From IMG/VR virus record IMGVR_UViG_3300021138_000002, positions 81,097-145,096 of that record: a stretch of DNA of 64,000 nt, one strand, 5' to 3'. Source of the stretch: a virus. Position numbers and translations under genes: made by a program. The stretch's first letter is position 1; the number at the start of each line of letters is the position of its first letter. The notes beneath the pieces are model-generated. The model was not told the origin of the DNA. It saw nothing but the letters and a program-made list of their open reading frames with translations, and searched no databases. This document shows, one piece after another, positions 686 through 15,202 of this stretch.

Positions 686-3600
686 GTGGCCGTCACAAGA
701 ATAAAAAATAACCAGATCACTGATGCATCAGCTGGCAATACCCAACTTGGTATCAATGCAAATACCAAAGTACAAGATTATAGCGTAACTTCAGTCAAGT
801 TAGCTAACAATATTACCTATGGTTCAGACCTTACCATTTCGGGTAACCTAAGCGTAACTGGTACAACCACAGCGGTTGATACCACATATACCAACATACA
901 AGATCCCCTGATCGTATTAGCAGACGGACAGACTAGTGGTAGCCCGGCCGTGGACATCGGCTATATCGGTCTACGTGGAAACCAAGCCAATATTGCTCTT
1001 ATCTGGAATGAGGCCAACAGCACTTTTGCTGCTACCTATACCAACAGCGGTGTGAACGATAACACCGTTGTTGCGATCAACAGCTATGCCGACTTCAAGG
1101 CCAACAATGTAAACACTGTGACTGATGTTTCAGCAGGCGGTAACGTATCGGGTGGCAATGTCTCTGCCACAACTGATGTATCAGCTGGTGGCAATGTAGC
1201 AGGTGGCAATGTGACTGCTACTACCAATGTGAGTGCTGGCGGAAACGTTTTGGCCAATACTGATGTTTCGGCTGGCGGTAACGTAGTTGGTGGCAATGTA
1301 AATGTAACTACCAACGTAAGTGCTGGTGGCAACATCTACGGTGCAAATTTTGCAACAACAGGATCGGGTGGCAATATCACTGGTGCCAATGTTATTTCTG
1401 CAACTACAGTGACCACTACTGGTGATGTCAGTGCAGGTGGCAATGTTGTAACTGGTGCCAATGTCAGCGTAGGCGGAAACGTTTCAGTTGCTGGCAATAT
1501 TACTGCGGTAGGCAACATTGGTGCTGGTCAGTACCTGTTTGGTGATGGTTATTATATCAGCAACATCAACTCAGGCAATATTGCAGCCAGTAAAATTGTA
1601 AACGGCGGTAGCTTTGCTAATATAGCCACAACTGACGGCAACTTGGTAGTTGCCATTGGTAACGCTTCGAGCACAGTGGCCACATTCTATGACACTGGTA
1701 TCAACACCAACGGCAATCTCAGTGCCAGTGGTAATATACTAGCCGGGGCTGACATAAGTGCTGGTGGTAACGTAACTGCAACTACCAATATCTCAGCCGG
1801 TAGCAATGTTTTGGCCAATACCGATGTTTCAGCAGGCGGTAATGTGTTAGGTGGCAACGTAACTGCCACTACCAATGTTTCAGCTGGTAGCAATGTTCTT
1901 GCTAACACAGACGTTTCGGCTGGTGGTAACGTAATTGGTGGCAATGTAACTGCAACTACTAATGTTTCAGCTGGTAGCAACGTTTTAGCAAATACTGATG
2001 TAAGTGCTGGCGGTAATGTAATTGGTGGTAACGTAACTGCAACTACCAATGTTTCAGCTGGTAGCAATGTTCTTGCCAACACAGATGTAAGTGCTGGCGG
2101 TAATGTAATTGGTGGTAACGTAATCGCAACTACCACCGTGAGTGCTGGCACCAATGTAATTTCTGGACAAGATATCAGTGCAGGCGGCAATGTATTGGCC
2201 TACAACAGTGTTTCTGCTAACGGAAATATAGCAGGTGACAATGTAATTGCTGGCACTACCATTTCATCAGGCGGAAATGTATTGGTTTATGGTTTGGTGA
2301 CAGCTGGTGGCAACATACAGTCCAATCAAAATGTACAGGCTTTCCAGGATGTCAGTGCCGGTGGTAACATAATTGCAAATTACAACGTAACTGCTACAGG
2401 CAACGTAACTGGTGGTAACGTAAATGCGGTTGGTATAGGTGCAGTAGTAAGTGCAGACGGCAACGTGGTTGGTGGCAACATAGTCACTCAAGGCACTATC
2501 ACAGCCACAGGTACATTGGAAGCTGGCAACATAGTCACCGGCGGATATGTAACTGCCACAGGTAACGTACAAGCCGGCAATATCAACACAGCAGGCGACG
2601 TAAGCGCCACAGCCAATGTCAACAGCGGCAACGTAAACAGTGGCACTATCAGTGCCACAGGTGCGATATATGGTGCCAACATCAACAGCAACTATCTCTA
2701 CAGTGCCAACAGCAGTTTGGTTATCAGTGCAGTAGGTACCAATAGCGGTATCAGCATATTCACCAACGGCTCGGGCAACATTGGTGTGGGCAATGCCTAT
2801 ATCAACAACTTGGCTGATCCACAGCAGAATCAAGATGCGGCTACCAAGTTCTATGTTGACAGCGTGGCACAAGGTTTAGCAGTAAAAGCTTCTGTGAGTG
2901 TGAGTGAAGTTTCCACATTGGCCAACGTGACCAACGTGACCAACGTGACTTACAACAACGGCACGTCCGGAGTTGGTGCCACATTGACCATAACCAGTAC
3001 AGCTCAAATCAGTTTAGACGGAGTTAATCTCAGTACATTGCCGGCCAATGCCAGAGTATTGATACAGAACGAAACCGGATCCGGTGCTGGCGATACCAAT
3101 GCTGCCTGGAACGGTATCTATTACATATCAACCAATACTCCAACCAACACTGTGCTCACACGTAGCTTGGATATGAATCAACCGAGCGAATTCTACGGTG
3201 CATTTACCTTTGTTGAAGACGGTACTGTGTACAAGGCCTCGGGTTGGGTATGTACCAATACTGCTGAGGCTAGCCCGATCACGATCGGTACCACAGCAGT
3301 TACTTGGAGCCAGTTCTCGGGTGCAGGTGCTTACACACAAGGCAACGGTATCGCGATTACAGGCACAATCATCAGCACCAGAATCAACACTGGCAATTTA
3401 GAGTATGATGGTAGCGGAAACCTACAAGTATCCAGCTATGCCAATTTGACTTATCCAAATATTGGATCAGCAACTGGTACCACATTGAGCTTGACCGGTA
3501 ATTTGGTTGCCAGTGCGATTGGCTCAACCGACAGCATGAGTGCTGCAGGCAATGTTTATGCAGGCAATATCAGTACAAGTGGCACTGTAGTTGCGGTAGC

Positions 3601-5965
3601 CAACATAACTGGTGGCAACTTGTTGACCGGCAACGTGGTCAGTGCAACTGGTAACGTAACAGGTGGCAATTTGATCACTGCAGGTTATGTTTCTGCTACT
3701 GGCAATTTGTACGGTGGTAACCTCAGCTTGTCAGGCAACGTACTCAGCGATATCAACATGTTGGGCAACATCACTGCAGGTGGATATATCACCGCAGTTG
3801 GCAACGTGTCAGCTGGCAATGTAAACACTGGCATAGTATCAGCTAGCGGTAACATATATTCAGCCAATATATTTGCCACAGGCGCTATTATTCCTACCAC
3901 AGACAACACATTTACACTGGGTAACTCAACCAACAGTTGGCAAAGCCTGTATGTTAGCGGAAGCACCATTTACTTGGGCAACATCCAACTCAAACAAACC
4001 GCGGCAAATACCCTTAGCGTGGTAGCCAGCGATGGTACTACACCAGCCAGCTTGTCTATCAACAGTATCAGTGCCAGTGGAAATATCACTGCTAATGGAA
4101 ACATGAGTGCCGGCGGCAATGTATGGTCTTCGGCAGACGTCAGCGCCACAGGCAATGTGTACGGCAACAATCTTTCAGCAGTCAGCAATGTAGCAGGTGG
4201 CAATATAGTTGCAACTACCGATGTAAGTGCTGGTGGTAATGTTTTAGCCAATACCGACCTAAGTGCTGGCGGCAATGTTGTGGGTGGCAATGTAAACGTA
4301 ACTACCAACGTAAGTGCTGGTGGTAACGTCTATGGTGCCAATTTTGCAACAACGGGCCCAAGTGGCAACATTACTGGTGCCAATGTTATTTCTGCAACCA
4401 CATTCACTGCCAGCGGCAATGTCACTGCCAACAATGTAACAGTTGGAAACATAGTGAGTGCAGTTGGCAATATTGTTACTAGCAACTACTTTGTGGGCGA
4501 TGGTTACTACATCAGCAACATCAACGCCGGCAACGTGGCCACAACCAAAATCTTTAACGGCAACAGCTATGCCAACGTAACTGCCAGCAACGGCAACGTC
4601 ACAATTGGTGTAAACAGCAATTTGGTAGCCACATTCTATGACACTGGTATCAGTTCAACTGGCAATGTAAACGTTGACGGATTAACTATTGCAGTAGGTC
4701 AGAGTTTGATTGGTACCACAGCCAATGCCAATATTACCATAACACCAAACGGATCGGGCGTACTTGCAGTACAAAGTTCCAGCAACGTTGGTATAGTTGT
4801 AAGTACAACTAGTGCTAATTTAAAAAATCAAATTAGAGTGCAGACTGTTGGAACCACCCTGGGCGGAAGCGGCGGCGGAGCATTTGTTGGAACTTATGTA
4901 CTAGGTAACGGCACACCAACACAAAGTCAAAATCGTTTGGTAACCATTGTTGGTGAAGGATCTGAAGACGGCACAACTGCCGGCCCAAGTGCTGCAACCA
5001 AGATCACGTTGGATGCTGCAGCCGATTGGTCAACAGGAAACACACCGGCTCACATCAGTTTTTGGACCACACCAAGTGGAAGCAACGTCAGTGTTGAATC
5101 AGTACGAGCCGAATCCAACGGCGATTTGAGTATTTTTAATGGTAACTTGAATGCAGCCAACGGTAACGTTTACACAACCAGTGTCAGCGCCAGCGGTTCG
5201 ATTGTGGCAGACGCCAATATCACCGGTGGTAATATATACACTGGCGGCGAAATCAGTTCAACTGGTAACGTCACATCTGGCACATTCTTCTATGTTGATC
5301 CTGTAGACAGCACTGTGTTGATCGGCAACAGCTCGATCGTGGCCTGTTCTGTATTGAGTTTGAACACCACAACCAGCTTTGTAGTTCCAGTTGGTAACAC
5401 AGCACAACGTCCAAGTTCAACTTACACTGGTATGGTTCGTTTCAATACCAGCCAAAACAACTTGGAAGTGTACGACAACGCACAATGGAGCCCAGTTGGT
5501 TCAACCACATACACTGTGATTGCTGACGAACAGTTCAACGGCGACGGTGCTACTGTGGCCTTTACATTGGGTAGCACACAAACTACCAACAGTTGTATTG
5601 TAAGCATCAACGGTGTGGTACAGATCCCAACATTGGCTTATGCTGTGTCAGGAACTTACCCAACTTGTGTGTTGACATTCACAGAAGCTCCAGAACTTGG
5701 TGACGTAATTGATGTAAGAGAAATCACAACCACAGTGACCTTGACCGAATTGGCCAGCCAAAGCGGTAATGCAACTGTAACTGTAAGCAACACCAGCGCC
5801 GAAGTTGACATCAAGGGTAACTTGGTAACCACAGTTAATAGCTCAGCTCCAACCCTGTCGACCAACCAGACCTTGAGCTTCCAGCTAGTATCAAATACCA
5901 GCTTGAAGATCTTGGTACGCGGCAGCGACGGTGTAACAAGAAGCGCCACATTGACCCTGAGCTAA
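686..5965 (+). CDS. Large tail-fibre/appendage protein with SAGGNV hexad repeats (1759 aa)
   Basis: Long beta-helix-like GN repeats. Phage fibre modules DAATKFYVD, RVLIQNE..NGIY, VPVGNTAQRP..GMVRFNT and FNGDG..INGVVQ..LTFTEAP are present. Confidence 0.8.
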   Translation: MAVTRIKNNQITDASAGNTQLGINANTKVQDYSVTSVKLANNITYGSDLTISGNLSVTGTTTAVDTTYTNIQDPLIVLADGQTSGSPAVDIGYIGLRGNQANIALIWNEANSTFAATYTNSGVNDNTVVAINSYADFKANNVNTVTDVSAGGNVSGGNVSATTDVSAGGNVAGGNVTATTNVSAGGNVLANTDVSAGGNVVGGNVNVTTNVSAGGNIYGANFATTGSGGNITGANVISATTVTTTGDVSAGGNVVTGANVSVGGNVSVAGNITAVGNIGAGQYLFGDGYYISNINSGNIAASKIVNGGSFANIATTDGNLVVAIGNASSTVATFYDTGINTNGNLSASGNILAGADISAGGNVTATTNISAGSNVLANTDVSAGGNVLGGNVTATTNVSAGSNVLANTDVSAGGNVIGGNVTATTNVSAGSNVLANTDVSAGGNVIGGNVTATTNVSAGSNVLANTDVSAGGNVIGGNVIATTTVSAGTNVISGQDISAGGNVLAYNSVSANGNIAGDNVIAGTTISSGGNVLVYGLVTAGGNIQSNQNVQAFQDVSAGGNIIANYNVTATGNVTGGNVNAVGIGAVVSADGNVVGGNIVTQGTITATGTLEAGNIVTGGYVTATGNVQAGNINTAGDVSATANVNSGNVNSGTISATGAIYGANINSNYLYSANSSLVISAVGTNSGISIFTNGSGNIGVGNAYINNLADPQQNQDAATKFYVDSVAQGLAVKASVSVSEVSTLANVTNVTNVTYNNGTSGVGATLTITSTAQISLDGVNLSTLPANARVLIQNETGSGAGDTNAAWNGIYYISTNTPTNTVLTRSLDMNQPSEFYGAFTFVEDGTVYKASGWVCTNTAEASPITIGTTAVTWSQFSGAGAYTQGNGIAITGTIISTRINTGNLEYDGSGNLQVSSYANLTYPNIGSATGTTLSLTGNLVASAIGSTDSMSAAGNVYAGNISTSGTVVAVANITGGNLLTGNVVSATGNVTGGNLITAGYVSATGNLYGGNLSLSGNVLSDINMLGNITAGGYITAVGNVSAGNVNTGIVSASGNIYSANIFATGAIIPTTDNTFTLGNSTNSWQSLYVSGSTIYLGNIQLKQTAANTLSVVASDGTTPASLSINSISASGNITANGNMSAGGNVWSSADVSATGNVYGNNLSAVSNVAGGNIVATTDVSAGGNVLANTDLSAGGNVVGGNVNVTTNVSAGGNVYGANFATTGPSGNITGANVISATTFTASGNVTANNVTVGNIVSAVGNIVTSNYFVGDGYYISNINAGNVATTKIFNGNSYANVTASNGNVTIGVNSNLVATFYDTGISSTGNVNVDGLTIAVGQSLIGTTANANITITPNGSGVLAVQSSSNVGIVVSTTSANLKNQIRVQTVGTTLGGSGGGAFVGTYVLGNGTPTQSQNRLVTIVGEGSEDGTTAGPSAATKITLDAAADWSTGNTPAHISFWTTPSGSNVSVESVRAESNGDLSIFNGNLNAANGNVYTTSVSASGSIVADANITGGNIYTGGEISSTGNVTSGTFFYVDPVDSTVLIGNSSIVACSVLSLNTTTSFVVPVGNTAQRPSSTYTGMVRFNTSQNNLEVYDNAQWSPVGSTTYTVIADEQFNGDGATVAFTLGSTQTTNSCIVSINGVVQIPTLAYAVSGTYPTCVLTFTEAPELGDVIDVREITTTVTLTELASQSGNATVTVSNTSAEVDIKGNLVTTVNSSAPTLSTNQTLSFQLVSNTSLKILVRGSDGVTRSATLTLS
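1772..2120 (+). repeat. About 4 tandem 87-bp (29 aa) repeats, VTATTNVSAGSNVLANTDVSAGGNVIGGN
   Basis: Units start near 1772, 1859, 1946 and 2033. Confidence 0.85.
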
Positions 5966-5981
5966 AAACTATAGGGTTTAG

Positions 5982-6014
5982 AAAAAATAGGACTCTCCGG
6001 AGTTCTATTTTTTT
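5982..6014. terminator. Intrinsic terminator
   Basis: AAAAAATAGGACTC-tccg-GAGTTCTATTTTTTT, with one G-U pair. Confidence 0.8.
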
Positions 6015-6044
6015 GGCTAAATATACAATAGGATAGGTAAAAAA

Positions 6045-6776
6045 ATGGCTCTAACTAAACCCCGTGCGTATCAGATATACGACATAGATTACAAACAAGC
6101 GACCCGAGTAGTAACAGTTACCAACGTTTCTTTAACTGGCGGAGCCCCAAACAATGTGGACGGAGTAACGCTCAGCCTCAACGATCGAGTGCTAGTCACC
6201 GGCCAGGCTGACCAGACACAAAACGGTATCTACATCATAACCACTGTGGGATCGGGTGCCAACGGAACTTGGGCTCGTAGCAACGATACCAACGAAACAG
6301 GAGAACTATTAGCCGGCACCATTGTCATGGTCACCGAAGGTGTAATCTACGCAGATACTCAGTGGAAACTGATCACAGACAATCCGATCATGATCGGAAC
6401 CACGCCCTTAGTATTCACACAAAATTATTTGGCCAACGTATTACACGCTGGCAACAGCAATGTCACAGTTTACAGCAACGCCAATGTGACCATAACAGCT
6501 GCCGGTGCAGCCAATGTGCTCACCGTAGCCTCGGATGGTGTGTACGTGATTGGCAATGTGTCGGCTTCTGGCAATGTCACAGCCGGTCGTGTGTCAGCTA
6601 CCGGCAATGTGACCGGTAACAATGTGGTTGCTGTGGCAGGATTTTTGGGCAATAATATCAGTGTGTCTGGCAACGTGACCCTGGGCAACCGACTGGATTG
6701 GACATCAAACGGTACCAGTGCGGTATACCAAGTGTACAATGCCAGCACCGGAAGCCTGGATACCATATTTGGGTAA
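6045..6776 (+). CDS. Fibre/structural protein (243 aa)
   Basis: The VDGV..DRVLV..QNGIY..WAR module is shared with ORF 686. GN repeats; C-terminus YNASTGSLDTIFG. Confidence 0.7.
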   Translation: MALTKPRAYQIYDIDYKQATRVVTVTNVSLTGGAPNNVDGVTLSLNDRVLVTGQADQTQNGIYIITTVGSGANGTWARSNDTNETGELLAGTIVMVTEGVIYADTQWKLITDNPIMIGTTPLVFTQNYLANVLHAGNSNVTVYSNANVTITAAGAANVLTVASDGVYVIGNVSASGNVTAGRVSATGNVTGNNVVAVAGFLGNNISVSGNVTLGNRLDWTSNGTSAVYQVYNASTGSLDTIFG

Positions 6777-6779
6777 TGT

Positions 6780-7649
6780 ATGTCTACATTAGCGACCCGA
6801 CTCACCAGTGATGGCATACTGCTAACCAATGCCTACTTTGACGAAATCACCAAGACCTGGGTCAGTATAGCACCTGATGCTGTGTATGCCGGCCAGTTTG
6901 ACGAAGTTTTTCTAGCCACCGGCAGTTTGTTGTTCTCGGGATCCACCGATTTTCTCTACGGAACCAACTCGGTATTTGACATCAGTGCACCTGGCACAGC
7001 CTGGACATTTGAAACTTGGATTTATCCTGCAACAGCCGGTGCTGTGTTCAGCATCGGCGACGGTACCCAGTACGGGCAGAGTTTTGCATTAGATTGGGGC
7101 GTTACTGCCACTGACAAATTTACGCTAAAGCAAGGTGATGGATCCAGTTATCCCATTTCGATTACCACTGCTGGCACCTATGCCAGCGGATCTTGGTATC
7201 ACGTGGCTGTGAGTTACACTGCCAGCGGCCTGAGAGCCATCTATGTCAACGGTGTGGATGATGCCAGTTACATGGCATCGGTCACGTTGAGTTCGGCCAC
7301 CCAGTGGGTGGTCAACGGCTACTACGACAACAACGGTCTGGGCAATGCTGGCGGATCCGGGCACCTGAGCAATCTGAGATTTGTGTTGGGCACAGCCCTG
7401 TACACAGCCAATTTTACGCCGCCTTACGCACCCCTAGTGCCGGTCACCAACACACAACTGCTGTTGTGCATGCCCGACAATGGTGGTGTCTTGATTGATA
7501 CCAGTGCCAACGCTTTCAAAATTCAGAGCCAAGGAACACCGGTAGCAACTGTTTTAAAACCATTCGTGGTAAATACTGTACAACGAGAATTAAACACAGG
7601 AACCTTACAGGTTTCTGGATATTTTGATGAAGAAACTGGCATCATTTAA
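6780..7649 (+). CDS. 'FDE-motif' adaptor protein with inserted LamG/concanavalin-A-like domain
   Basis: WTFETWIYP..WYHVAV..IYVNG..GHLSNLRFV is LamG-like. The flanks (FDEIT, FDEV, FDEETG) match ORF 9963. Confidence 0.7.
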   Translation: MSTLATRLTSDGILLTNAYFDEITKTWVSIAPDAVYAGQFDEVFLATGSLLFSGSTDFLYGTNSVFDISAPGTAWTFETWIYPATAGAVFSIGDGTQYGQSFALDWGVTATDKFTLKQGDGSSYPISITTAGTYASGSWYHVAVSYTASGLRAIYVNGVDDASYMASVTLSSATQWVVNGYYDNNGLGNAGGSGHLSNLRFVLGTALYTANFTPPYAPLVPVTNTQLLLCMPDNGGVLIDTSANAFKIQSQGTPVATVLKPFVVNTVQRELNTGTLQVSGYFDEETGII

Positions 7650-7667
7650 CAATTAGGACAATAAAAA

Positions 7668-9950
7668 ATGGCTAAACTGCTATCAGGAACCACGGTATAC
7701 GGAAATGCCGTAATCCAAACATATATAACCGTTACCGGTAACGTGATCGGTGGCAACGTACTAGTAACCGGATCCGGACAGATCAGCACAGCTGGAAATG
7801 TCTATGCCAACAACACAATCATAGCTGGATCAGAAACTGTGACTGGAAATATCACTGGTGGTAACATATTGACAGGTGGACAAATAAGTGCCACTGGCAA
7901 TATCACCATACCGCAAGGCAACTTCTTTATCGGTAATGGTAGCCAACTTACCGGTGTTGTTGCTACTTCGGCCAATGCCCAAACATTGACTGGCACATAC
8001 CTTGCCAACAATGTTGTAACTTCCAATTTGACCAGTTTTGGTCTTGTAACTTCTATCAGCTCAACCGGCAACGTCACTACCACAGGTAATGTAATTGGTG
8101 GCAACGTATTAACAGGTGGTTTGATTTCGGCGGCTGGTACGATCACCAGTGCAGCCAACATCACTGGCGGTAATGTATTAACTGCTGGCTTGATCAGCTC
8201 GACCGGCACAATCACTTCGGCAGCAAACGTGATCGGCGGCAATTTGGTCACTGCTGGATCAGTCACAGCCACAGCCAACATCACCGGCGGTAATGTATTA
8301 ACAGCCGGTTTGGTAAGTGCTACAGGCAATGTCACAGGCGGCAACATAACCACCGCTGGTTTAATCACTGCAACCGGTGCAATCACCAGTTCTGCCAACA
8401 TCACAGGTGGTAATGTACTAACTGGTGGTTTGATCAGTGCCACAGGTAATGTGATCAGCGGCAACATAAACACCGGCAGTATCAGCCAAACCGGAAACTT
8501 ATATGTGGGCGGATCGGCCAACATTATCGGTAACTTGAACGTACAGGGCAATGTAACATTCGTCAACAGCAACGTAATCACTGTAAACGATTTATACATC
8601 GAACTGGCCAACAACATCACTACCTATGCCAACGCTAACAGTGCTGGTTTGGTAGTTGGACCTGCCGGCAACAGCTTGTTCAATTGGCAGTATCTCAATT
8701 CAGCCAATGCCTGGTCAACCAACATCGGTATCAGTGCCCAGGGCAACATAAACGGTGGTAATGTAATCACAGGTGGTTTGGTAAACGCCACAGGCAATTT
8801 AACAGGTGGAAATGTAAACACAGCCGGTCTAATCAGTGCCGCAGGCAATATCTACGGTGGCAATTTGAGCATCACCGGAAGCATTACATTTGCTACAGTG
8901 ACTGGAACTACAATCAGTGTCACTGGTAATGTGATTGGTGGTAATCTATTGACAGGTGGTGGCGTAAGTGCTGCCGGACAGATCAGTGCCACAGCCAACA
9001 TCACTGGTGGCAATTTGCTCACAGCTGGTCTAATCAGCTCAACTGGCTCTATCACCAGTGCTGCGAACGTGACCGGTGGTAATGTATTGACTGCTGGATT
9101 GGTAAGTGCCACGGGTAACATAACTGGCGGTAACATATTAAGTGCTGGCTTGGCCAGTTTGACCGGCAACATCACAGGCGGTAACATATTAACTGCTGGT
9201 TTGATCAGCTCAACTGGCACAATCACCAGTGCTGCTAATATCACAGGTGGTAACGTATTAACTGCTGGTTTGATCAGCTCAACTGGTAATTTGACCAGCG
9301 GCAACATTACAACCAGCGGCTCAGTGACAGCCACAGCCAATATTACCGGCGGCAACATATTAACTGCCGGCTTGATCAGCTCAACTGGTACTATCACTAG
9401 TTCTGCCAACATTGCAGGTGGTAATGTACTCACAGCTGGATTGATATCAGCAACCGGTAACGTAACAGGTAATTACATATTGGGTAACGGTAGTCAATTG
9501 ACCGGTATTGATGTTGGACCACAACCCAACATTGTGAACGGAACTACCAACGTAAGTATTGCCACAGCCAATGCCAATGTGACAGTGAGTGTCGGCGGTG
9601 TTGGCAACGTAGCAGTATTTTCGACAGCCGGACTCAGTGTATCAGGCACAGTACAAGCCAACGGAACTGTCACAGGCGGTAATTTGGCCACAGCCGGCAC
9701 CGCCAGTGCAACCGGCAACATCACCGGCGGTAACATACTGACAGCTGGATTGGTCAGCGCCACAGGCACCATTACTAGTGCTGCCAATATCACTGGTGGT
9801 AACTTGTTAACAGGTGGACAAATAAGTGCTACTGGTAATATTGCCACAAGCGCCTATTTAAACTTGGCCAACAGTGCTAATGCTGCCGGCCCAGGTGGAC
9901 ACATAACTTATAACTCAAGTCTGATCAGCATAGACTTTACCTTTGGATAA
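7668..9950 (+). CDS. Fibre protein with ~17-aa GN repeats (760 aa)
   Basis: N-terminus MAKLLSGTTVYGNA; [16 protein letters not shown] repeats; C-terminus YNSSLISIDFTFG. Confidence 0.75.
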   Translation: MAKLLSGTTVYGNAVIQTYITVTGNVIGGNVLVTGSGQISTAGNVYANNTIIAGSETVTGNITGGNILTGGQISATGNITIPQGNFFIGNGSQLTGVVATSANAQTLTGTYLANNVVTSNLTSFGLVTSISSTGNVTTTGNVIGGNVLTGGLISAAGTITSAANITGGNVLTAGLISSTGTITSAANVIGGNLVTAGSVTATANITGGNVLTAGLVSATGNVTGGNITTAGLITATGAITSSANITGGNVLTGGLISATGNVISGNINTGSISQTGNLYVGGSANIIGNLNVQGNVTFVNSNVITVNDLYIELANNITTYANANSAGLVVGPAGNSLFNWQYLNSANAWSTNIGISAQGNINGGNVITGGLVNATGNLTGGNVNTAGLISAAGNIYGGNLSITGSITFATVTGTTISVTGNVIGGNLLTGGGVSAAGQISATANITGGNLLTAGLISSTGSITSAANVTGGNVLTAGLVSATGNITGGNILSAGLASLTGNITGGNILTAGLISSTGTITSAANITGGNVLTAGLISSTGNLTSGNITTSGSVTATANITGGNILTAGLISSTGTITSSANIAGGNVLTAGLISATGNVTGNYILGNGSQLTGIDVGPQPNIVNGTTNVSIATANANVTVSVGGVGNVAVFSTAGLSVSGTVQANGTVTGGNLATAGTASATGNITGGNILTAGLVSATGTITSAANITGGNLLTGGQISATGNIATSAYLNLANSANAAGPGGHITYNSSLISIDFTFG
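8472..8738 (+). repeat. 267-bp segment duplicated at 11651-11917 (shared fibre module)
   Basis: Both copies encode [35 protein letters not shown]; most differences are synonymous. Confidence 0.9.
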
Positions 9951-9962
9951 TAGGGGAACACC

Positions 9963-10205
9963 ATGACATTTTTAGCCGCTAGACTGTTGAGCACCGGCAA
10001 CCTGATGATAGCCAACACTATCCAGTTTGACGAAGTCACGTACAGCAATGTACACATTGCTCAGAATGGATGCTATGCGGGATTGCTGGATGAAGTCACC
10101 CAACCAGCCAATGTGCCCATGCGTATACTGAACAACCAAACCATACAAACTGGTAATGTAGCAGGAGCCAACGGAATATTTGACGAGTATACCGGCATAA
10201 GTTAA
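9963..10205 (+). CDS. Minimal 'FDE-motif' adaptor protein (80 aa), paralogue of 6780 without LamG
   Basis: LAARLLSTGNL..QFDEVT..LDEVT..FDEYTGIS; SD GGGGA upstream. Confidence 0.7.
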   Translation: MTFLAARLLSTGNLMIANTIQFDEVTYSNVHIAQNGCYAGLLDEVTQPANVPMRILNNQTIQTGNVAGANGIFDEYTGIS

Positions 10206-10213
10206 AGGATACT

Positions 10214-10591
10214 ATGGCCAAATTACAAAGCGGAACCACGGTATACGGAAATGCCAATGTCACTACATACCTAACAGTTGGAAGCTATGTATCGGCTGCG
10301 GGCAACGTGTATGCCGGCAACATTGTCAGCACCGGTTCAGAATCAGTCGCAGGAAACATTATCGGTGGTAACATACTCACTGCCGGACAGATCAGTGCCA
10401 CCGGTAACATCACAGCTGATCCTAGCAGTTTTTTCATTGGTAATGGTAGTTTACTGACTGGTGTACAAACCAGTAACGGTGGTAATCTATTGGTATTACA
10501 AAGAACAGGCATCCTAAAGGTGCCAATTAGCTATGGTTATCTGCTGGTGGTGGGTCGATCTGGAAATGTACAATGTCCAATTGTTGCATAA
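10214..10591 (+). CDS. Short fibre protein, paralogue of the 7668 N-terminus
   Basis: MAKLQSGTTVYGNA..FFIGNGSLLTGV; SD AAGGA. Confidence 0.7.
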   Translation: MAKLQSGTTVYGNANVTTYLTVGSYVSAAGNVYAGNIVSTGSESVAGNIIGGNILTAGQISATGNITADPSSFFIGNGSLLTGVQTSNGGNLLVLQRTGILKVPISYGYLLVVGRSGNVQCPIVA

Positions 10592-10612
10592 ATATGATAA
10601 TAGGATAATAAC

Positions 10613-13600
10613 ATGACAAATCGTTTTCCACTAATATCTAATGCAACAGCAAATCAGATACAAGAAATCGCCGTTGGCGATTTTCTAGATTTAAGCCAAA
10701 GTGGTATAGCCAACAGCGGTAATATTACAGTAGCTTCCGGTAGCTTTTTTATCGGAGACGGATCAAAACTAACCGGAGTAACTGCCGAAGGAGCAAATGC
10801 TGCTGAGCTGATAGGAAATACTCTCAGTTCTAATGTGCTTTTTTCAAGTTTAACCTCGGTGGGCACATTGACCACTGTTAGTGTATCGGGCAATATAGGT
10901 GGCGGAAACGTTTTAACCGGTGGCCTGATCAGTGCCAGTGGCAATATTACTGGAAATTACATATTAGGTAATGGTGCTTGTTTGACTGGTGTGATCACTA
11001 GTGTGGCCAATATCAATAACGGTACTTCAAATGTCGCAATCACCACTTCGGGTGGAAATGTCAATGTGGCAATTGCCGGCAATGCTATTGCTGCATTTAC
11101 AGCCAATGGCTTGATGCCAGCTGCTAATGTCACATACAGTCTTGGATCAACTACCCAAAGATGGAAAGATCTTTGGGTCGCTAACAGTACAATTTACATG
11201 GGCAATGTCAGTCTTGCCACAACTGGAGACACATTAACGGTCAACGGTGCTAATGTTTTAACTGGTACCAATGGTGGATTTAGCACTGCTGGCAATATCA
11301 CCGGCGGTAATATTTTAAACAACGGATTGATCAGTTCAACCGGCAACAGCACAGCAGCCAATTATCAGACTGCAGGACTGGTATCAGCCACAGGTAACAT
11401 TACCGGTGGCAATGTGTTAACCGGTGCTGTATCAGCTTCGGGCAACATAACTGGCGCCAACATCTTGACTGTTGGGCTAGTAAGTGCTGGCGCCAACATT
11501 ACCAGTGCAACCAACATCAACGGTGGCAATTTGATTGCAACCGGTATAAACGGTTTTGTGAGTGCTAACGGTAACATTGTGACAGCATTTGGTAGTTTTA
11601 TTGGAACAGCTATGTCTGTGAGTGGCAACATTGCAGGCGGCAATGTCAATACCGGCAGCATCAGTCAAACCGGCAATTTATATGTGGGCGGTAGTGCCAA
11701 CATTATCGGTAACTTGAATGTGTCGGGCAACGTGACATTCGTCAACAGCAACGTGATCACAGTCAATGACTTGTACATTGAGTTGGCCAACAATATTAAC
11801 ACTTATGCCAATGCTAATTCGGCTGGATTGGCTGTTGGACCTGCCGGAAACGCATTATTCAACTGGCAATATCTTAACTCGGCTAACGCTTGGTCAACCA
11901 ACATCGGTATCAGTGCCGCAGGCAATGTCACAGTTGGCAATATTATCAACAAAGGATCTGAGACTGTTGTAGGCAATGTGATAGCAGCCGGATTCCAATA
12001 TGCCAATGGTACTCCGGTACAAGGATCAGGCGCACAAGGCACAACCGGAACACAAGGCACTACTGGAGCTCAGGGCACAACCGGAGCACAAGGAACAACA
12101 GGTGCTCAAGGCACAACTGGAACACAAGGCACAACCGGAGCTCAAGGAACGCAAGGCACTACAGGTGCACAGGGAACCACAGGTGCACAGGGCACAACTG
12201 GAGCCCAGGGCACAACTGGAGCCCAGGGCACAACTGGAGCCCAGGGAACAACTGGTGCACAAGGTACAACCGGAGCCCAAGGAACCACAGGTGCACAGGG
12301 CACAACCGGAGCACAAGGAACCACAGGAACACAAGGCACTACCGGAGCTCAAGGCACAACCGGAGCTCAAGGAACCACAGGTGCTCAAGGCACAACCGGA
12401 TCATTTAATGGCAATTTGACAGCCAATGTAAACGGCAATGGTTTCAGTATCAGCAATGTAGCTTATATCAGTACAAACAATAATATTACAGCTACCGGCA
12501 ACGTAATTGGTGGCAATTTGCTTACCACTCTTGGCATCATCAGCACTGGTGGTAACATTTTTGGCTATCAAGAGTCATTGAGTGGTTCAAGTCAAGCAGC
12601 CAGCTACAGTGCCAGTGGTAACATAACCGGCGGTAACATAAACGCGGCTGTACTAATTTCGTCTGCCGGTAATGTATACGGAAACAATTTTGTAACCGCA
12701 GGTTCGGGCGGAGCATTATCGGGCACAGGTAATATAATTGGCGGTAACTTATTGACCAGTGGTGGCATAAGTGCTACCGGACAGATCAGTGCCACAGCCA
12801 ACGTTACTGGTGGTAATGTCTTAACCGGCGGATTAGTTTCAGCCACAGCCAACGTTACTGGTGGCAATGTCTTAACCGGCGGATTAGTTTCAGCCACAGC
12901 CAACGTTACTGGTGGCAATGTCATAACCGGCGGATTAGTCAGTGCCAACGGTACCATTACTGGCGGTAACATAAACACCGGTGGCGCAATATCAGCCAAT
13001 GGCAACGTCACTATAGGTACAGTTGGCTCAGGATCAGGCACCTATATTTCCGCACAAGGAAATATATCAGCTGCCAATATCATAACAACCGGTGCCAATG
13101 TAAGCAATATCATAATGCCTGGGTCGGGATATATCAGCGCCTATGGCAATATATATGGCGGTAATTTGATAGCAACCGCCGCAAGTGGATTTGTCAGTGC
13201 CAATGGTAATATCGTGACAGCATTTGGTAGTTTTATTGGAACAGCAATGTCTGTGAGTGGCAATGTAAACAGTGGCAACATTAGAACTCTTGGTGTAGTC
13301 ACAGCGTCTGGTAACGTAGTAGCGGCCGGATTCCAATATGCCAACGGTACCGCAGTACAAGGATCTGGAGCTCAAGGCACTACCGGTACACAGGGTACTA
13401 CCGGAGCTCAAGGCACCACAGGTGCTCAAGGCACCACCGGTACACAGGGTACTACCGGAGCTCAAGGCACCACCGGTACACAGGGCACCACCGGTACACA
13501 GGGCACAACTGGGGCTCAAGGCATTCAAGGTGTAGTTGGAACACAAGGTACAGTTGGCACTACGGGTGCTCAAGGAACTGTAGGTGCTCAAGGCATTCAA

Positions 13601-15202
13601 GGTGTAGTTGGAACACAAGGTGTAGTTGGAACACAAGGTACAGTTGGCACCACAGGTGCACAAGGCACAACAGGTACAACTGGATCAACCGGAGCACAGG
13701 GAACCACAGGTGCACAAGGCACAACAGGTACAACTGGATCAACCGGTGCACAAGGAACCACAGGTGCACAAGGCACAACAGGTACAACTGGAGCACAAGG
13801 AACCACAGGTGCACAAGGCATCACTGGATCAACCGGTCTAGGATATTCTGGATTGACATCCTCAAGTAGCCAAACTATTGCATCAAGCGGCACATTCACG
13901 CTTACCACAAACTTGGCATCAACAGCGACAGCGTTTGCCATTGGACAACGTGTACGAGTATTCAACACACCAACTCCGGCCAACTTTATTGAGGGTACTA
14001 TTGCCACGTTCTCTAGTACTTCGATGACTGTAACCATAACTAACAGCGGCGGTTCGGGAACATTCAGTGCTTGGACTATTGTTGACGCAGGTGTACAAGG
14101 TGCACAAGGTACAACAGGTACAACCGGTAGCCAAGGTACCACAGGTAACACTGGTAGCCAAGGTACAGCTGGTACCAACGGAAACAACGGAAGCCAAGGT
14201 ACAACAGGTACTACAGGTAGCCAAGGTACCGCTGGTAACAACGGAAATAACGGAAGCCAAGGTACTGCTGGTAACAACGGAAACAACGGAAGCCAAGGTA
14301 CAACAGGTACAACCGGTAGCCAGGGTGCCACTGGACCACAGGGCAATCAGGGTAACACCGGTACACAAGGTACTACAGGTACAACCGGTAGCCAAGGCAC
14401 AACAGGACCACAAGGCAATCAGGGTAATACTGGTAGCCAAGGTACTACAGGTGCAACAGGTAGCCAAGGTGCGACTGGACCACAGGGCAATCAGGGTAAT
14501 ACAGGTAGCCAAGGCGCAACAGGACCACAGGGCAATCAGGGTAATACAGGTAGCCAAGGTACTACAGGTGCAACAGGTAACCAAGGTAATCCGGGTAATA
14601 CCGGTAGCCAAGGTACTGCTGGATCAACTGGTAGCCAAGGTGCCACAGGTCCAAGCACAGCAATCAATGCCACGGCAGTTAGTACCGGTACATACTATCC
14701 GGTATTTGTTGCCTCAGCTGGATCAAATCAGACTCCAAGCATAAGAACCACTGCTACTGCATTCAGCTTCAATGCTGGAACCAACGTGCTTACTGTTACT
14801 GCAACCACAGCACAATACGCCGACTTGGCAGAATGCTATGCAGCCGATGCCGAATATGCTCCTGGAACAGTAGTAGTGTTTGGTGGAACAAACGAAGTCA
14901 CAATCAGCGATATCGCAAGTAATCCTGCGGTAGCTGGTGTGGTCAGTACCGAACCAGCTCACTTGATGAATGCATTCCAACCGGGCAAAAACATAGTACC
15001 AGTTGCGTTGGTTGGACGTGTGCCTTGTCAAGTTACGGGTACGATCACCAAGGGCGATCGTTTGGTGACCAGCTCCATTCCGGGTGTGGCAGTTCGACTA
15101 GATCCAGATCTATATCAACCAGGTTGCTTGATTGGTAAAGCCCTGCAAGACTACGACAGTGACGCCATTGGCACCATCGAAGTAGCGGTAGGTCGAGCCT
15201 AA
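10613..15202 (+). CDS. Fibre protein with GN repeats, three collagen-like blocks and a C-terminal intramolecular chaperone/autocleavage (peptidase G2-like) domain
   Basis: (GAQGTT)n blocks. C-terminus [35 protein letters not shown] resembles the phi29 gp12-type chaperone. Confidence 0.8.
12026..12400 (+). repeat. Collagen-like block 1, (GAQGTT)n, 18-bp unit
   Basis: Uninterrupted Gly-X-Y triplets. Confidence 0.9.
12791..12940 (+). repeat. Three near-identical 51-bp tandem repeats ([17 protein letters not shown])
   Basis: Units start at 12791, 12842 and 12893. Confidence 0.9.
13367..13840 (+). repeat. Collagen-like block 2 ([12 protein letters not shown])
   Basis: Gly-X-Y triplets. Confidence 0.9.
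14090..14655 (+). repeat. Collagen-like block 3 (GSQ/GNQ/GPQ/GNN)
   Basis: Gly-X-Y triplets, separated from block 2 by an ~80-aa globular module. Confidence 0.9.

What the first reader, a model, noticed from the sequence alone, without database searches (positions are those of the whole stretch)
6045..10700. Repeating adaptor-fibre gene chain with paired terminal motifs
Seen: ORF 6045 ends YNASTGSLDTIFG and is followed by FDE-adaptor 6780, then by a fibre starting MAKLLSGTTVYGNA (7668). That fibre ends YNSSLISIDFTFG and is followed by FDE-adaptor 9963, then by MAKLQSGTTVYGNA (10214). The junction 'YN..S.D..FG / FDE protein / MAKL.SGTTVYG' therefore occurs twice in gene order. ORF 10214 ends in a different motif (VVGRSGNV) before the terminal collagen fibre. 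Inference: a three-part connector joins separate trimeric segments head to tail, so fibre length could change by adding cassettes.
Basis: partly seen in the sequence, partly recalled or inferred. Interest (0 to 1): 0.72.

Follow-up and report, generated by a model that had tools for sequence, protein, structure and literature searches.

The report
Three-part joints chaining phage fibre segments
An uncultured giant T4-like phage encodes a long virion fibre as separate segments; conserved end motifs on neighbouring segments flank a small three-repeat adaptor gene, most likely a snap-together knee joint like that of phage T4's long tail fibre, though binding itself is untested.

Summary
Twice in gene order, a fibre gene ending ..N....S(L/I)D(T/F).FG is followed by an 'FDE' adaptor gene and then by a gene starting MAKL.SGT.VYG. 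These motifs occur nowhere else in the 145-kb contig.

The pattern also holds in IMG/VR scans seeded on one motif at a time:
- 35 of 36 FDE-seeded unique junctions have the tail motif upstream, and 30-32 of 34 have the plug downstream.
- 69 of 74 tail-seeded genes have an FDE gene directly downstream. The other five have one a gene further on.
- The plug is less exclusive. About 70% follow an FDE gene and about 21% follow a ~1000-aa protein ending ..WTEAQA.

The adaptor is an internal triplication of a ~23-residue unit. It tolerates large insertions or fusions (LamG, beta-helix cargo), and no fusion to a fibre end was found.

The best reading (about 0.65) is a knee joint analogous to T4 gp34-gp35-gp36-gp37. 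T4 gp35 likewise builds its joint domain from both termini, around inserted lectin-like domains. No sequence homology to T4 was detectable. Both AlphaFold monomer models were uninformative, and contact is unproven.

This scan reached a similar reading before on other genomes. I found no description of the adaptor in the literature searched.

The parts
686..5965 (+). 1759-aa repeat fibre; probable upstream (proximal) segment of the same chain
   Evidence: One search gives the ORF. Its C-terminal module (..SFQLV..LVRG.DGVTR..TL[SA]) precedes genes starting M.LT(K/R).RA.QI.D in 7 distinct contigs. A TAAATA box lies 26 nt upstream. The link to the next gene is inferred.
6018..6023 (+). TAAATA late-promoter-like box, 27 nt before the 243-aa gene; preceded by a hairpin plus T-run at about 5975-6010
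   Evidence: Four of the five TAAATA boxes in the first 19 kb lie 24-27 nt upstream of gene starts (686, 6045, 10613, 18173).
6045..6776 (+). 243-aa segment 1: variable N-terminal globular domain, short repeat stalk and C-terminal tail motif (class SLDT.F, about 6717-6773)
   Evidence: The N-domain matches phrog_2647 and the PDB 9NX3 capsid decoration protein (E 7e-5). In L006 only the last ~65 aa are shared and the N-domain is replaced.
6780..7649 (+). 289-aa FDE adaptor 1: repeats R1-R2 (aa 1-46), inserted LamG/ConA-like domain, repeat R3 (aa 265-289)
   Evidence: PF13385, E 5e-12. The FDE HMM matches it in two pieces, 1-45 and 265-288. Both ends align to the 80-aa paralogue.
7668..9950 (+). 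760-aa segment 2: N-terminal plug (7668-7709), 17-residue-period repeat rod and C-terminal tail motif (class SIDF.F, about 9900-9947)
   Evidence: It shares a 381-aa stretch at 54% identity with the collagen fibre.
9963..10205 (+). 80-aa minimal FDE adaptor 2: three repeats only
   Evidence: 19 close homologues of 66-84 aa. The profile finds 241 representative proteins at E<=1e-3. Internal triplication by hhalign: R1/R3 97%, R1/R2 93%, R2/R3 90%.
10214..10591 (+). 125-aa connector: plug domain (aa 1-84) plus a 41-aa C-terminal docking tail (about 10466-10588); analogue of T4 gp36
   Evidence: 63% identity to the N-terminus of the 760-aa protein. Conserved full-length in L006. Its tail type and the next gene's N-terminus co-occur again in the independent contig L322.
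10613..15202 (+). 1529-aa distal fibre: N-terminal M.NRFPLI..QE...GDFLDLS docking motif (10613-10708), repeat rod, three collagen blocks and a C-terminal globular domain
   Evidence: PF01391, E 5e-67. Many tail-fibre PHROGs. A TAAATA box lies 24 nt upstream.

Best explanation
Genes 6045-15202, and probably 686-5965 as well, encode one articulated virion fibre built from separate segments joined head to tail in gene order.

At two joints the C-terminal hairpin of the proximal segment (..VYQ.YN....S(L/I)D(T/F).F(G)) is bound by a small FDE adaptor. The N-terminal plug (MAKL.SGT.(V/I)YG) of the next segment docks onto this capped end.

The adaptor is a ~73-residue single chain made of three similar ~23-residue units, each ending in (F/L)DE(V)T. 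I infer that it is a pseudo-threefold monomer that matches a trimeric fibre end, as T4's monomeric kneecap gp35 does between (gp34)3 and (gp36)3.

The loops between units carry optional cargo. Here that is a LamG lectin-like domain at joint 1 and nothing at joint 2, so a joint can also display a binding domain.

The 125-aa protein is a pure connector, comparable to gp36. It passes the chain to the collagen fibre through a third, two-part joint.

The two FDE joints belong to different cognate classes, which would enforce assembly order.

Shown: the motifs, the paralogy, the triplication, co-occurrence across more than 140 unique junctions, and the cargo architectures.

Inferred: physical contact, stoichiometry, serial topology, and whether the fibre sits on the tail or the head.
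For: 1. **Anatomy.** All ORFs and motifs are present.
2. **Unbiased co-occurrence in IMG/VR.** FDE-seeded: 35/36 with the tail upstream and 30-32/34 with the plug downstream, against a background of 26/1226 ORFs. Tail-seeded: 69/74 with an FDE gene immediately downstream, and the other 5 with an FDE-bearing gene after one small ORF. Pooled: 144 unique FDE genes, about 98% with a tail and about 96% with a plug.
3. **Conserved ends, swapped middles.** Upstream partners range from 129 to 1678 aa and downstream partners from 125 to 1911 aa. L006 keeps only the last ~65 aa of segment 1.
4. **The 125-aa protein has only two docking ends.** Other contigs fuse the same plug domain to a different tail, which pairs with a different next gene.
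5. **The FDE module is a triplication**.
6. **The module tolerates cargo.** Inserts occur between units, and 200-2000-aa cargo is fused at either end.
7. **No fibre-adaptor fusions.** None occurs among 191 proteins and about 370 loci, despite gaps of 0-15 nt. This fits a 3:1 symmetry mismatch.
8. **Distinct joint classes.** In two-joint contigs the two joints always differ in all three parts, with the cognate sets conserved between contigs.
9. **Parallel in T4.** The gene order is fibre, adaptor, small connector, distal fibre. [quoted passage not shown] It is reported as a monomer between trimers (PMC5537660).
10. **A cultured phage has a diverged copy.** Cyanophage S-SRM01 gp331/gp332/gp333.
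Against: - No physical or structural evidence exists. AlphaFold2 monomer models of both adaptors had pLDDT 52.6 and 42.2, and no multimer prediction was possible.
- There is no detectable sequence relation to T4 gp34, gp35 or gp36. HMM scores were at most 4 bits. Profile-profile probability was 0.2-0.5%.
- The plug is not exclusive to FDE joints. 24 of 115 plug genes follow ..WTEAQA proteins.
- Much of the co-occurrence could be inherited synteny among related aquatic phages.
- A small gene just downstream of a fibre gene is also the hallmark of tail-fibre chaperones.
- The repeat rods (period 17, FapA-like hits) could be single-chain solenoids, so trimeric state is not proven for every segment.
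- The N-domain of segment 1 resembles a capsid decoration protein, so the appendage may not be a tail fibre.
Confidence: 0.65

Rival explanations
1. Tip cap or chaperone model. Each FDE protein is a Tfa/gp38-like assembly factor or tip adhesin for the C-terminus of the upstream fibre only. The fibres are independent and attach to the virion in parallel through their common MAKL N-terminus.
For: - Tail motif and FDE gene are the tightest pair (69/74 and 35/36).
- The gene lies immediately downstream of the fibre gene, as for Tfa and gp38 (general knowledge).
- The plug also occurs without an FDE gene.
- The LamG cargo could be an adhesin.
Against: - About 96% of FDE genes are followed by a plug gene.
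- The first segment never has the plug and the last never has the tail, as a serial chain predicts.
- The 125-aa protein has no receptor-binding part.
- The 73-80-aa adaptors have no adhesin domain.
- There is no Pfam or PHROG match to known chaperone families.
- Cargo of up to about 2000 aa is unlike a chaperone.
Confidence: 0.12
2. Decoration-only model. Tail and plug bind each other directly. The FDE module is merely an anchor that hangs optional cargo (LamG, beta-helix proteins) on the joint and is dispensable for joining.
For: - The FDE module is fused to very diverse and very large cargo.
- Plugs can dock without an FDE gene behind ..WTEAQA proteins.
Against: - 42 of 144 unique adaptors are bare modules of 51-109 aa with no cargo. 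Conservation of these is hard to explain for a pure cargo anchor.
- No tail-motif gene was found without an FDE gene within two genes downstream.
Confidence: 0.15
3. Synteny only. The three motifs are inherited together as a conserved operon and are generic fibre end-caps and starts with no specific mutual contact.
For: All loci come from aquatic metagenomic phage contigs that may be related. Only one cultured phage matches, and weakly.
Against: - The ends are near-invariant while the sequence between them is replaced. N and D are 100% conserved and F 99% in the tail. M and A are 100%, T 96%, G 94% and Y 93% in the plug.
- The two joint classes within one genome stay distinct in all three parts.
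- The partners of the plug fall into just two defined classes.
Confidence: 0.05

Closest known systems
Phage T4 long tail fibre: (gp34)3 - gp35 kneecap - (gp36)3 - (gp37)3
   Same: - The gene order is proximal fibre, small adaptor, short connector, long distal fibre.
- One small protein sits between fibre segments.
- T4 gp35 builds its joint ('tower-like') domain of about 70 residues from its N- and C-terminal segments. Lectin/CBM-like domains are inserted between them (bioRxiv 10.64898/2026.03.06.709160). The 289-aa FDE-LamG protein does the same.
- T4 gp35 is reported as monomeric between trimers (PMC5537660).
   Different: - There is no detectable sequence similarity.
- Here there are two such joints in series, of two cognate classes.
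- A minimal 73-80-aa form has no inserted domain.
- The adaptor is an obvious triplication with an (F/L)DE signature.
- Cargo is highly variable.
- The end motifs differ from the T4 gp34 C-terminus and gp36 N-terminus.
PAAR / T4 gp5.4 spike-tip proteins (own knowledge, not tested here)
   Same: A small single chain with three internal repeats that caps a trimeric beta-structure by pseudo-threefold symmetry and can carry fused cargo domains.
   Different: There was no Pfam match to PAAR. PAAR caps a free tip and is not known to bridge to a second trimer. The resemblance is a mechanistic analogy only.
Tail-fibre assembly or adhesin proteins encoded downstream of fibre genes (lambda/Mu/P2 Tfa, T4/T2 gp38; own knowledge)
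   Same: A small gene immediately downstream of a fibre gene, tightly coupled to that fibre's C-terminal motif.
   Different: There is no family match. The gene is nearly always followed by another fibre gene with a conserved plug. The module is fused to giant structural cargo.
Synechococcus phage S-SRM01 gp331-gp332-gp333 (NC_070963), annotated as baseplate wedge subunit / hypothetical protein / baseplate wedge subunit
   Same: The only cultured-phage instance found. gp331 ends ..NSLDFIFI. The gp332 N-terminus matches the FDE HMM (E 1e-7). gp333 starts MALLK.N.G.
   Different: The plug is diverged. The cargo is C-terminal rather than inserted. It has not been studied experimentally.

Membership tests
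T4 gp35 kneecap family (its homologues carry PF15711) | Sequence or profile similarity to gp35 | tested here: not met
   The FDE HMM against T4 gp35 scored -0.3 bits. hhalign of the FDE-LamG alignment (A3) and of the FDE alignment (A2) against a 17-member gp35 alignment (A4) gave probability 0.2% and 0.5%. There was no PF15711 hit in Pfam.
T4 gp35 kneecap family (its homologues carry PF15711) | Gene between the proximal fibre and a short connector that precedes the distal fibre | tested here: met
   The window has 760 aa / 80 aa / 125 aa / 1529 aa. T4 has gp34 / gp35 / gp36 / gp37.
T4 gp35 kneecap family (its homologues carry PF15711) | Joint domain built from the N- and C-terminal segments, with a globular lectin-like insert | tested here: met
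   The FDE HMM hits residues 1-45 and 265-288 of the 289-aa protein, and PF13385 lies between them. The T4 architecture is taken from the preprint. This was compared at the level of domain order only, not of fold.
T4 gp35 kneecap family (its homologues carry PF15711) | One monomer per joint, in contact with both rods | not testable with these tools
   No multimer prediction was available. Monomer models had pLDDT 52.6 and 42.2. gp35 is absent from the PDB copy.
Tail-fibre assembly chaperones (Tfa / gp38 types) | Match to a known chaperone family | tested here: not met
   There were no Pfam or PHROG hits for the 80-aa protein. The 289-aa protein hit only LamG and LamG-containing structural PHROGs.
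Tail-fibre assembly chaperones (Tfa / gp38 types) | Small gene immediately downstream of the fibre whose C-terminus it serves | tested here: met
   The gaps are 3 and 12 nt in the window. 69 of 74 tail-seeded genes have an FDE gene directly downstream.
Laminin_G_3 / ConA-like lectin domain (PF13385) | Score above the Pfam gathering cut-off | tested here: met
   46.6 bits against a cut-off of 27.6, residues 70-180 of the 289-aa protein.
Collagen triple-helix repeat (PF01391), as evidence of a trimeric distal fibre | Gly-X-Y repeats above the cut-off | tested here: met
   222 bits in 8 stretches of the 1529-aa protein.
PAAR-like pseudo-threefold caps | Three internal repeats in one small chain | tested here: met
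   hhalign between the three sub-alignments gave 97%, 93% and 90%. This is an analogy only, with no sequence match to PAAR.

The most novel reading that the evidence does not exclude
The FDE module is a portable, single-chain, pseudo-threefold 'symmetry adaptor'. It turns a fibre's trimeric C-terminal hairpins into a universal socket for the MAKL plug.

Its three aromatic-acidic (F/L)DE tips would mimic the three ..WTEAQA C-termini of the alternative, homotrimeric socket.

Different cognate classes would give orthogonal joints that dictate assembly order, and the loops display swappable cargo.

The tower domain of T4's kneecap has three conserved EF-type motifs in its terminal segments. It would be a very distant relative of this module.
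Probability: 0.3. Interest if true: 0.8.

Novelty: new variant of a known kind. Interest (0 to 1): 0.62.

Why it matters
How multi-protein phage fibres are joined is known in detail only for T4, and even there the knee was resolved only recently.

A compact 73-residue joint module is recognisable from sequence and recurs in more than 140 distinct junctions. This has three uses:
- It would let annotators read fibre wiring, including order, branch points and displayed lectin domains, directly from metagenomic contigs of uncultured giant phages.
- It would explain how receptor-binding modules are exchanged without disturbing assembly.
- It would give a minimal, testable model for matching a monomer to trimeric rods.

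The cultured cyanophage S-SRM01 offers an experimental entry point.

Tried and rejected
- **Megablast against phages.** Region 6000-10700 gave no match.
- **tblastn against cultured phages.** The 125-aa protein gave no match. A plug-bearing N-terminus hit only S-SRM01, and only in a repeat region. The system is therefore essentially absent from cultured phage records.
- **Frameshift reading of the 125-aa ORF.** Rejected, because no other frame continues it and it is conserved full-length.
- **AlphaFold2 monomer models.** The 80-aa adaptor (19-row alignment) gave pLDDT 52.6. The 289-aa adaptor (28-row alignment) gave pLDDT 42.2. Both are too poor to use, so I ran no fold search.
- **PDB sequence searches.** The FDE profile and the 125-aa protein gave nothing meaningful. 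T4 gp35 is not in the PDB copy.
- **ESM Atlas.** The 80-aa protein scored below 0.9, which is uninformative.
- **The search for related loci with the diverse FDE alignment.** It failed because no stretch was conserved enough. I replaced it with degenerate DNA patterns.
- **Homology to T4 gp34, gp35 and gp36.** Not detected by HMM or hhalign. The only hhalign match pairs an FDE unit with the C-terminal EFRE of gp35, at E 0.1-0.3, which is not significant.
- **Promoter and terminator scan.** No enrichment.
- **One profile hit (P0048).** It is a low-complexity false positive.
- **Read-through fusion fold.** The adjacent in-frame genes could have been folded as one read-through chain. I did not do this, because the tool returns no contacts and the 2-7-residue linkers would bias the geometry.


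Full report
**Context**

The window is the last 64 kb of a 145,096-bp IMG/VR virus contig that CheckV rates 42% complete. It is therefore probably a jumbo phage.
- Its major head protein is about 65% identical to those of Vibrio phage 2.275.O, Sinorhizobium phage Phosso and Pseudomonas phage PA5oct.
- T4-type portal, prohead protease and head genes lie just upstream.
- Neck, sheath, tube and terminase genes lie downstream.
- The fibre genes occupy 686-15202, all on the + strand.

**Observation**

- The tail motif and the plug motif occur only at these genes in the whole contig. The FDE module occurs only in the two adaptor genes.
- The 80-aa protein aligns to both ends of the 289-aa protein. 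The middle of the 289-aa protein is a Laminin_G_3 domain.
- The 125-aa protein shares its first 84 residues (63% identity) with the 760-aa fibre, then diverges into a 41-residue tail.
- That tail is not a frameshift artefact. It is conserved in a related 199,683-bp contig, which has the same six-gene chain.

**Is the junction general?**

A profile of the 80-aa family found 241 representative proteins at E<=1e-3 among 1.84 billion. I then seeded IMG/VR scans on one motif at a time and inspected the neighbours, so the neighbouring motifs were not part of the query.

| Seed | Result |
|---|---|
| FDE motif | 35/36 unique junctions have the tail motif at the end of the upstream gene; 30/34 have the strict plug downstream, and two more have variant plugs. 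Only 26 of 1226 background ORFs carry either motif. |
| Tail motif | 69/74 have an FDE gene starting immediately downstream. The other five have a 57-65-aa ORF and then a beta-helix protein, which in L121 carries a C-terminal FDE module. |
| Plug | 78/115 have an HMM-detected FDE gene upstream and 2 have an FDE-like end. 24 follow ~1000-aa proteins ending ..W(T/N)E(A/S)QA. Of the remaining 11, several have the upstream gene cut by the contig end. |

- Pooling all loci gives 144 unique FDE genes in 162 loci. With relaxed motif definitions, about 98% have a tail upstream and about 96% have a plug downstream.
- The end motifs are nearly invariant. In the tail, N and D are 100% conserved, F 99% and S 96%. 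In the plug, M and A are 100%, T 96%, G 94% and Y 93%.
- The proteins between the motifs vary greatly. Upstream partners range from 129 to 1678 aa and downstream partners from 125 to 1911 aa.

**The adaptor**

- Sub-alignments of its three parts match each other by hhalign: R1/R3 97% (E 2e-11), R1/R2 93% and R2/R3 90%. The module is therefore a triplicated ~23-residue unit ending in (F/L)DE(V)T.
- Among the unique genes, the architectures are 42 bare modules (51-109 aa), 58 split by one or two inserts, 26 with C-terminal cargo, 14 at the C-terminus of large proteins and 4 in the middle of a protein.
- The cargo includes LamG, ~1000-aa beta-helix proteins and a 2022-aa multi-domain protein.
- Both ends and both inter-unit loops of the module accept extra domains.
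- No fusion of a fibre tail to an FDE module, or of an FDE module to a plug, was found in 191 proteins and about 370 loci. Many intergenic gaps are only 0-15 nt. I read this as consistent with a stoichiometric mismatch, such as three fibre chains to one adaptor. That reading is an inference.

**Serial or parallel?**

Four points favour a serial chain.
- The first gene has a tail but no plug, the middle gene has both, and the gene after the last FDE joint has a plug but no tail.
- The 125-aa protein consists only of a plug domain and a second docking tail.
- The tail type of the 125-aa protein co-occurs with the next gene's M.NRFPLI...GDFLDLS start in the independent contig L322.
- In other contigs the same plug domain is fused to a different C-terminus, which is followed by a different partner.

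In contigs with two joints, the two always differ in tail, adaptor and plug, and the cognate sets are conserved between contigs. This would prevent skipping of the middle segment.

The chain probably starts further upstream. The C-terminal module of the 1759-aa protein precedes the M.LT(K/R).RA.QI.D start of segment 1 in seven distinct contigs.

**Comparison with T4**

T4 encodes gp34, gp35, gp36 and gp37 in the same order.
- gp35 is described as a monomeric kneecap between trimeric rods (PMC5537660).
- A 2026 preprint resolves gp35 as a tower-like joint domain made of residues 1-21 and 324-372. [quoted passage not shown]
- This is the same domain order as the 289-aa FDE-LamG protein, and the joint module is of similar size (about 70 residues).

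Homology, however, is not demonstrable.
- HMMs of the tail, the plug and the FDE module score at most 4 bits against T4 gp34-gp38.
- Profile-profile comparison with a gp35 family alignment gives probabilities below 1%.

I therefore file this as something that works like the T4 knee, not as a member of the gp35 family.

**Limits**

- Both structure predictions failed, and no solved relative exists.
- Trimeric state is inferred. The distal fibre has collagen repeats, and it shares a 381-aa stretch at 54% identity with the 760-aa fibre.
- The repeat rods have a 17-residue period.
- The N-domain of segment 1 resembles a capsid decoration protein (PDB 9NX3, E 7e-5). The operon also follows the head genes. 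'Virion fibre' is therefore safer than 'tail fibre'.
- Much of the co-occurrence may reflect shared ancestry of aquatic phage contigs.
- Among cultured phages, only S-SRM01 shows a diverged copy, and no proteomics exist for it.

**Novelty**

I found no description of this adaptor in the literature searched. Follow-up notes of this same scan on other genomes reached a similar reading. My tests here were run independently of them. The principle, an adaptor at a fibre knee, is known from T4. The following appear new:
- the module itself and its triplication;
- its minimal 73-80-aa form;
- serial use of the joint with distinct cognate classes;
- the generic plug with two socket types.

Noticed in passing
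window 660, 6018, 10589, 18149: Four of the five TAAATA boxes in the first 19 kb lie 24-27 nt upstream of gene starts (686, 6045, 10613, 18173). This suggests T4-like late promoters. Genes 6045-10591 would then form one late transcription unit.
   Followed up: partly
window about 5975-6010: A hairpin followed by a run of seven T lies between the 1759-aa gene and the 243-aa gene. It is a likely terminator that the consensus scan missed.
   Followed up: no
window 5400-5965 and 6045-6120; L010, L012, L043, L180, L202, L229, L362: A further joint type. A long fibre ending ..SFQLV..LVRGTDG.TR..TL(S/A) is followed by a gene starting M.LT(K/R).RA.QI.D.DYKQ in seven distinct contigs. In L006 both partners are replaced together.
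   Followed up: partly
window 10466-10708; L322 about 3400-3620: A two-part joint without an adaptor gene. The C-terminal tail of the 125-aa protein (GGNL.V..R..VP...G.L...GR.GN) pairs with the next gene's start (M.NRFPLI...QEL..GDFLDLS). The pairing recurs in an independent contig.
   Followed up: partly
24 plug-seeded loci, e.g. L144, L148, L173, L177, L234; also L010-L012 (948/952-aa genes): Proteins of about 1000 aa ending ..R(L/I)SW(T/N)E(A/S)QA are followed, usually after 3 nt, by a MAKL-plug gene with no FDE gene between them. Their aromatic-polar-Glu C-terminus resembles the FDE tip.
   Followed up: partly
window 6045-6440: The N-terminal domain of the 243-aa protein matches PDB 9NX3, 'capsid decoration protein' (E 7e-5), and phrog_2647, 'head decoration'. 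The same domain also sits inside the 1759-aa fibre. The appendage could therefore be head-attached.
   Followed up: no
L006 1574-2326 against window 6045-6776: A mosaic. The two proteins share only their last ~65 residues, which are nearly identical. The N-terminal domains are unrelated, and the L006 one starts with an FP.SPT..Q.Y-type motif.
   Followed up: partly
L121, L269, L279, L280, L282: A conserved 57-65-aa ORF (..F.FD..YGK..DA..L.D...LTD.EIE.MKQ.R) lies between the tail-motif gene and the next gene. In four of these loci that next gene is a large beta-helix protein (M..RYWVGG..TWD start); in L121 it carries a C-terminal FDE module.
   Followed up: no
window 6045-10205: Four consecutive genes (243, 289, 760 and 80 aa) lie in one reading frame, separated only by one or two stop codons and 1-5 sense codons.
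   Followed up: no
L009 (T4) 5688-6806: The terminal segments of T4 gp35, which form its tower-like domain, contain three conserved EF-type motifs in the family alignment: MA.FG near the N-terminus, AEFGVNGIR at about residue 330, and EFRE at the C-terminus. The only hhalign match to the FDE unit falls on the last of these and is not significant.
   Followed up: partly
window 7668-9950 and 686-5965: The repeat rods show residue autocorrelation peaks at 17, 23, 34 and 6. This fits a three-sided beta-helix with about 17-18 residues per turn. There are FapA beta-solenoid Pfam hits.
   Followed up: partly
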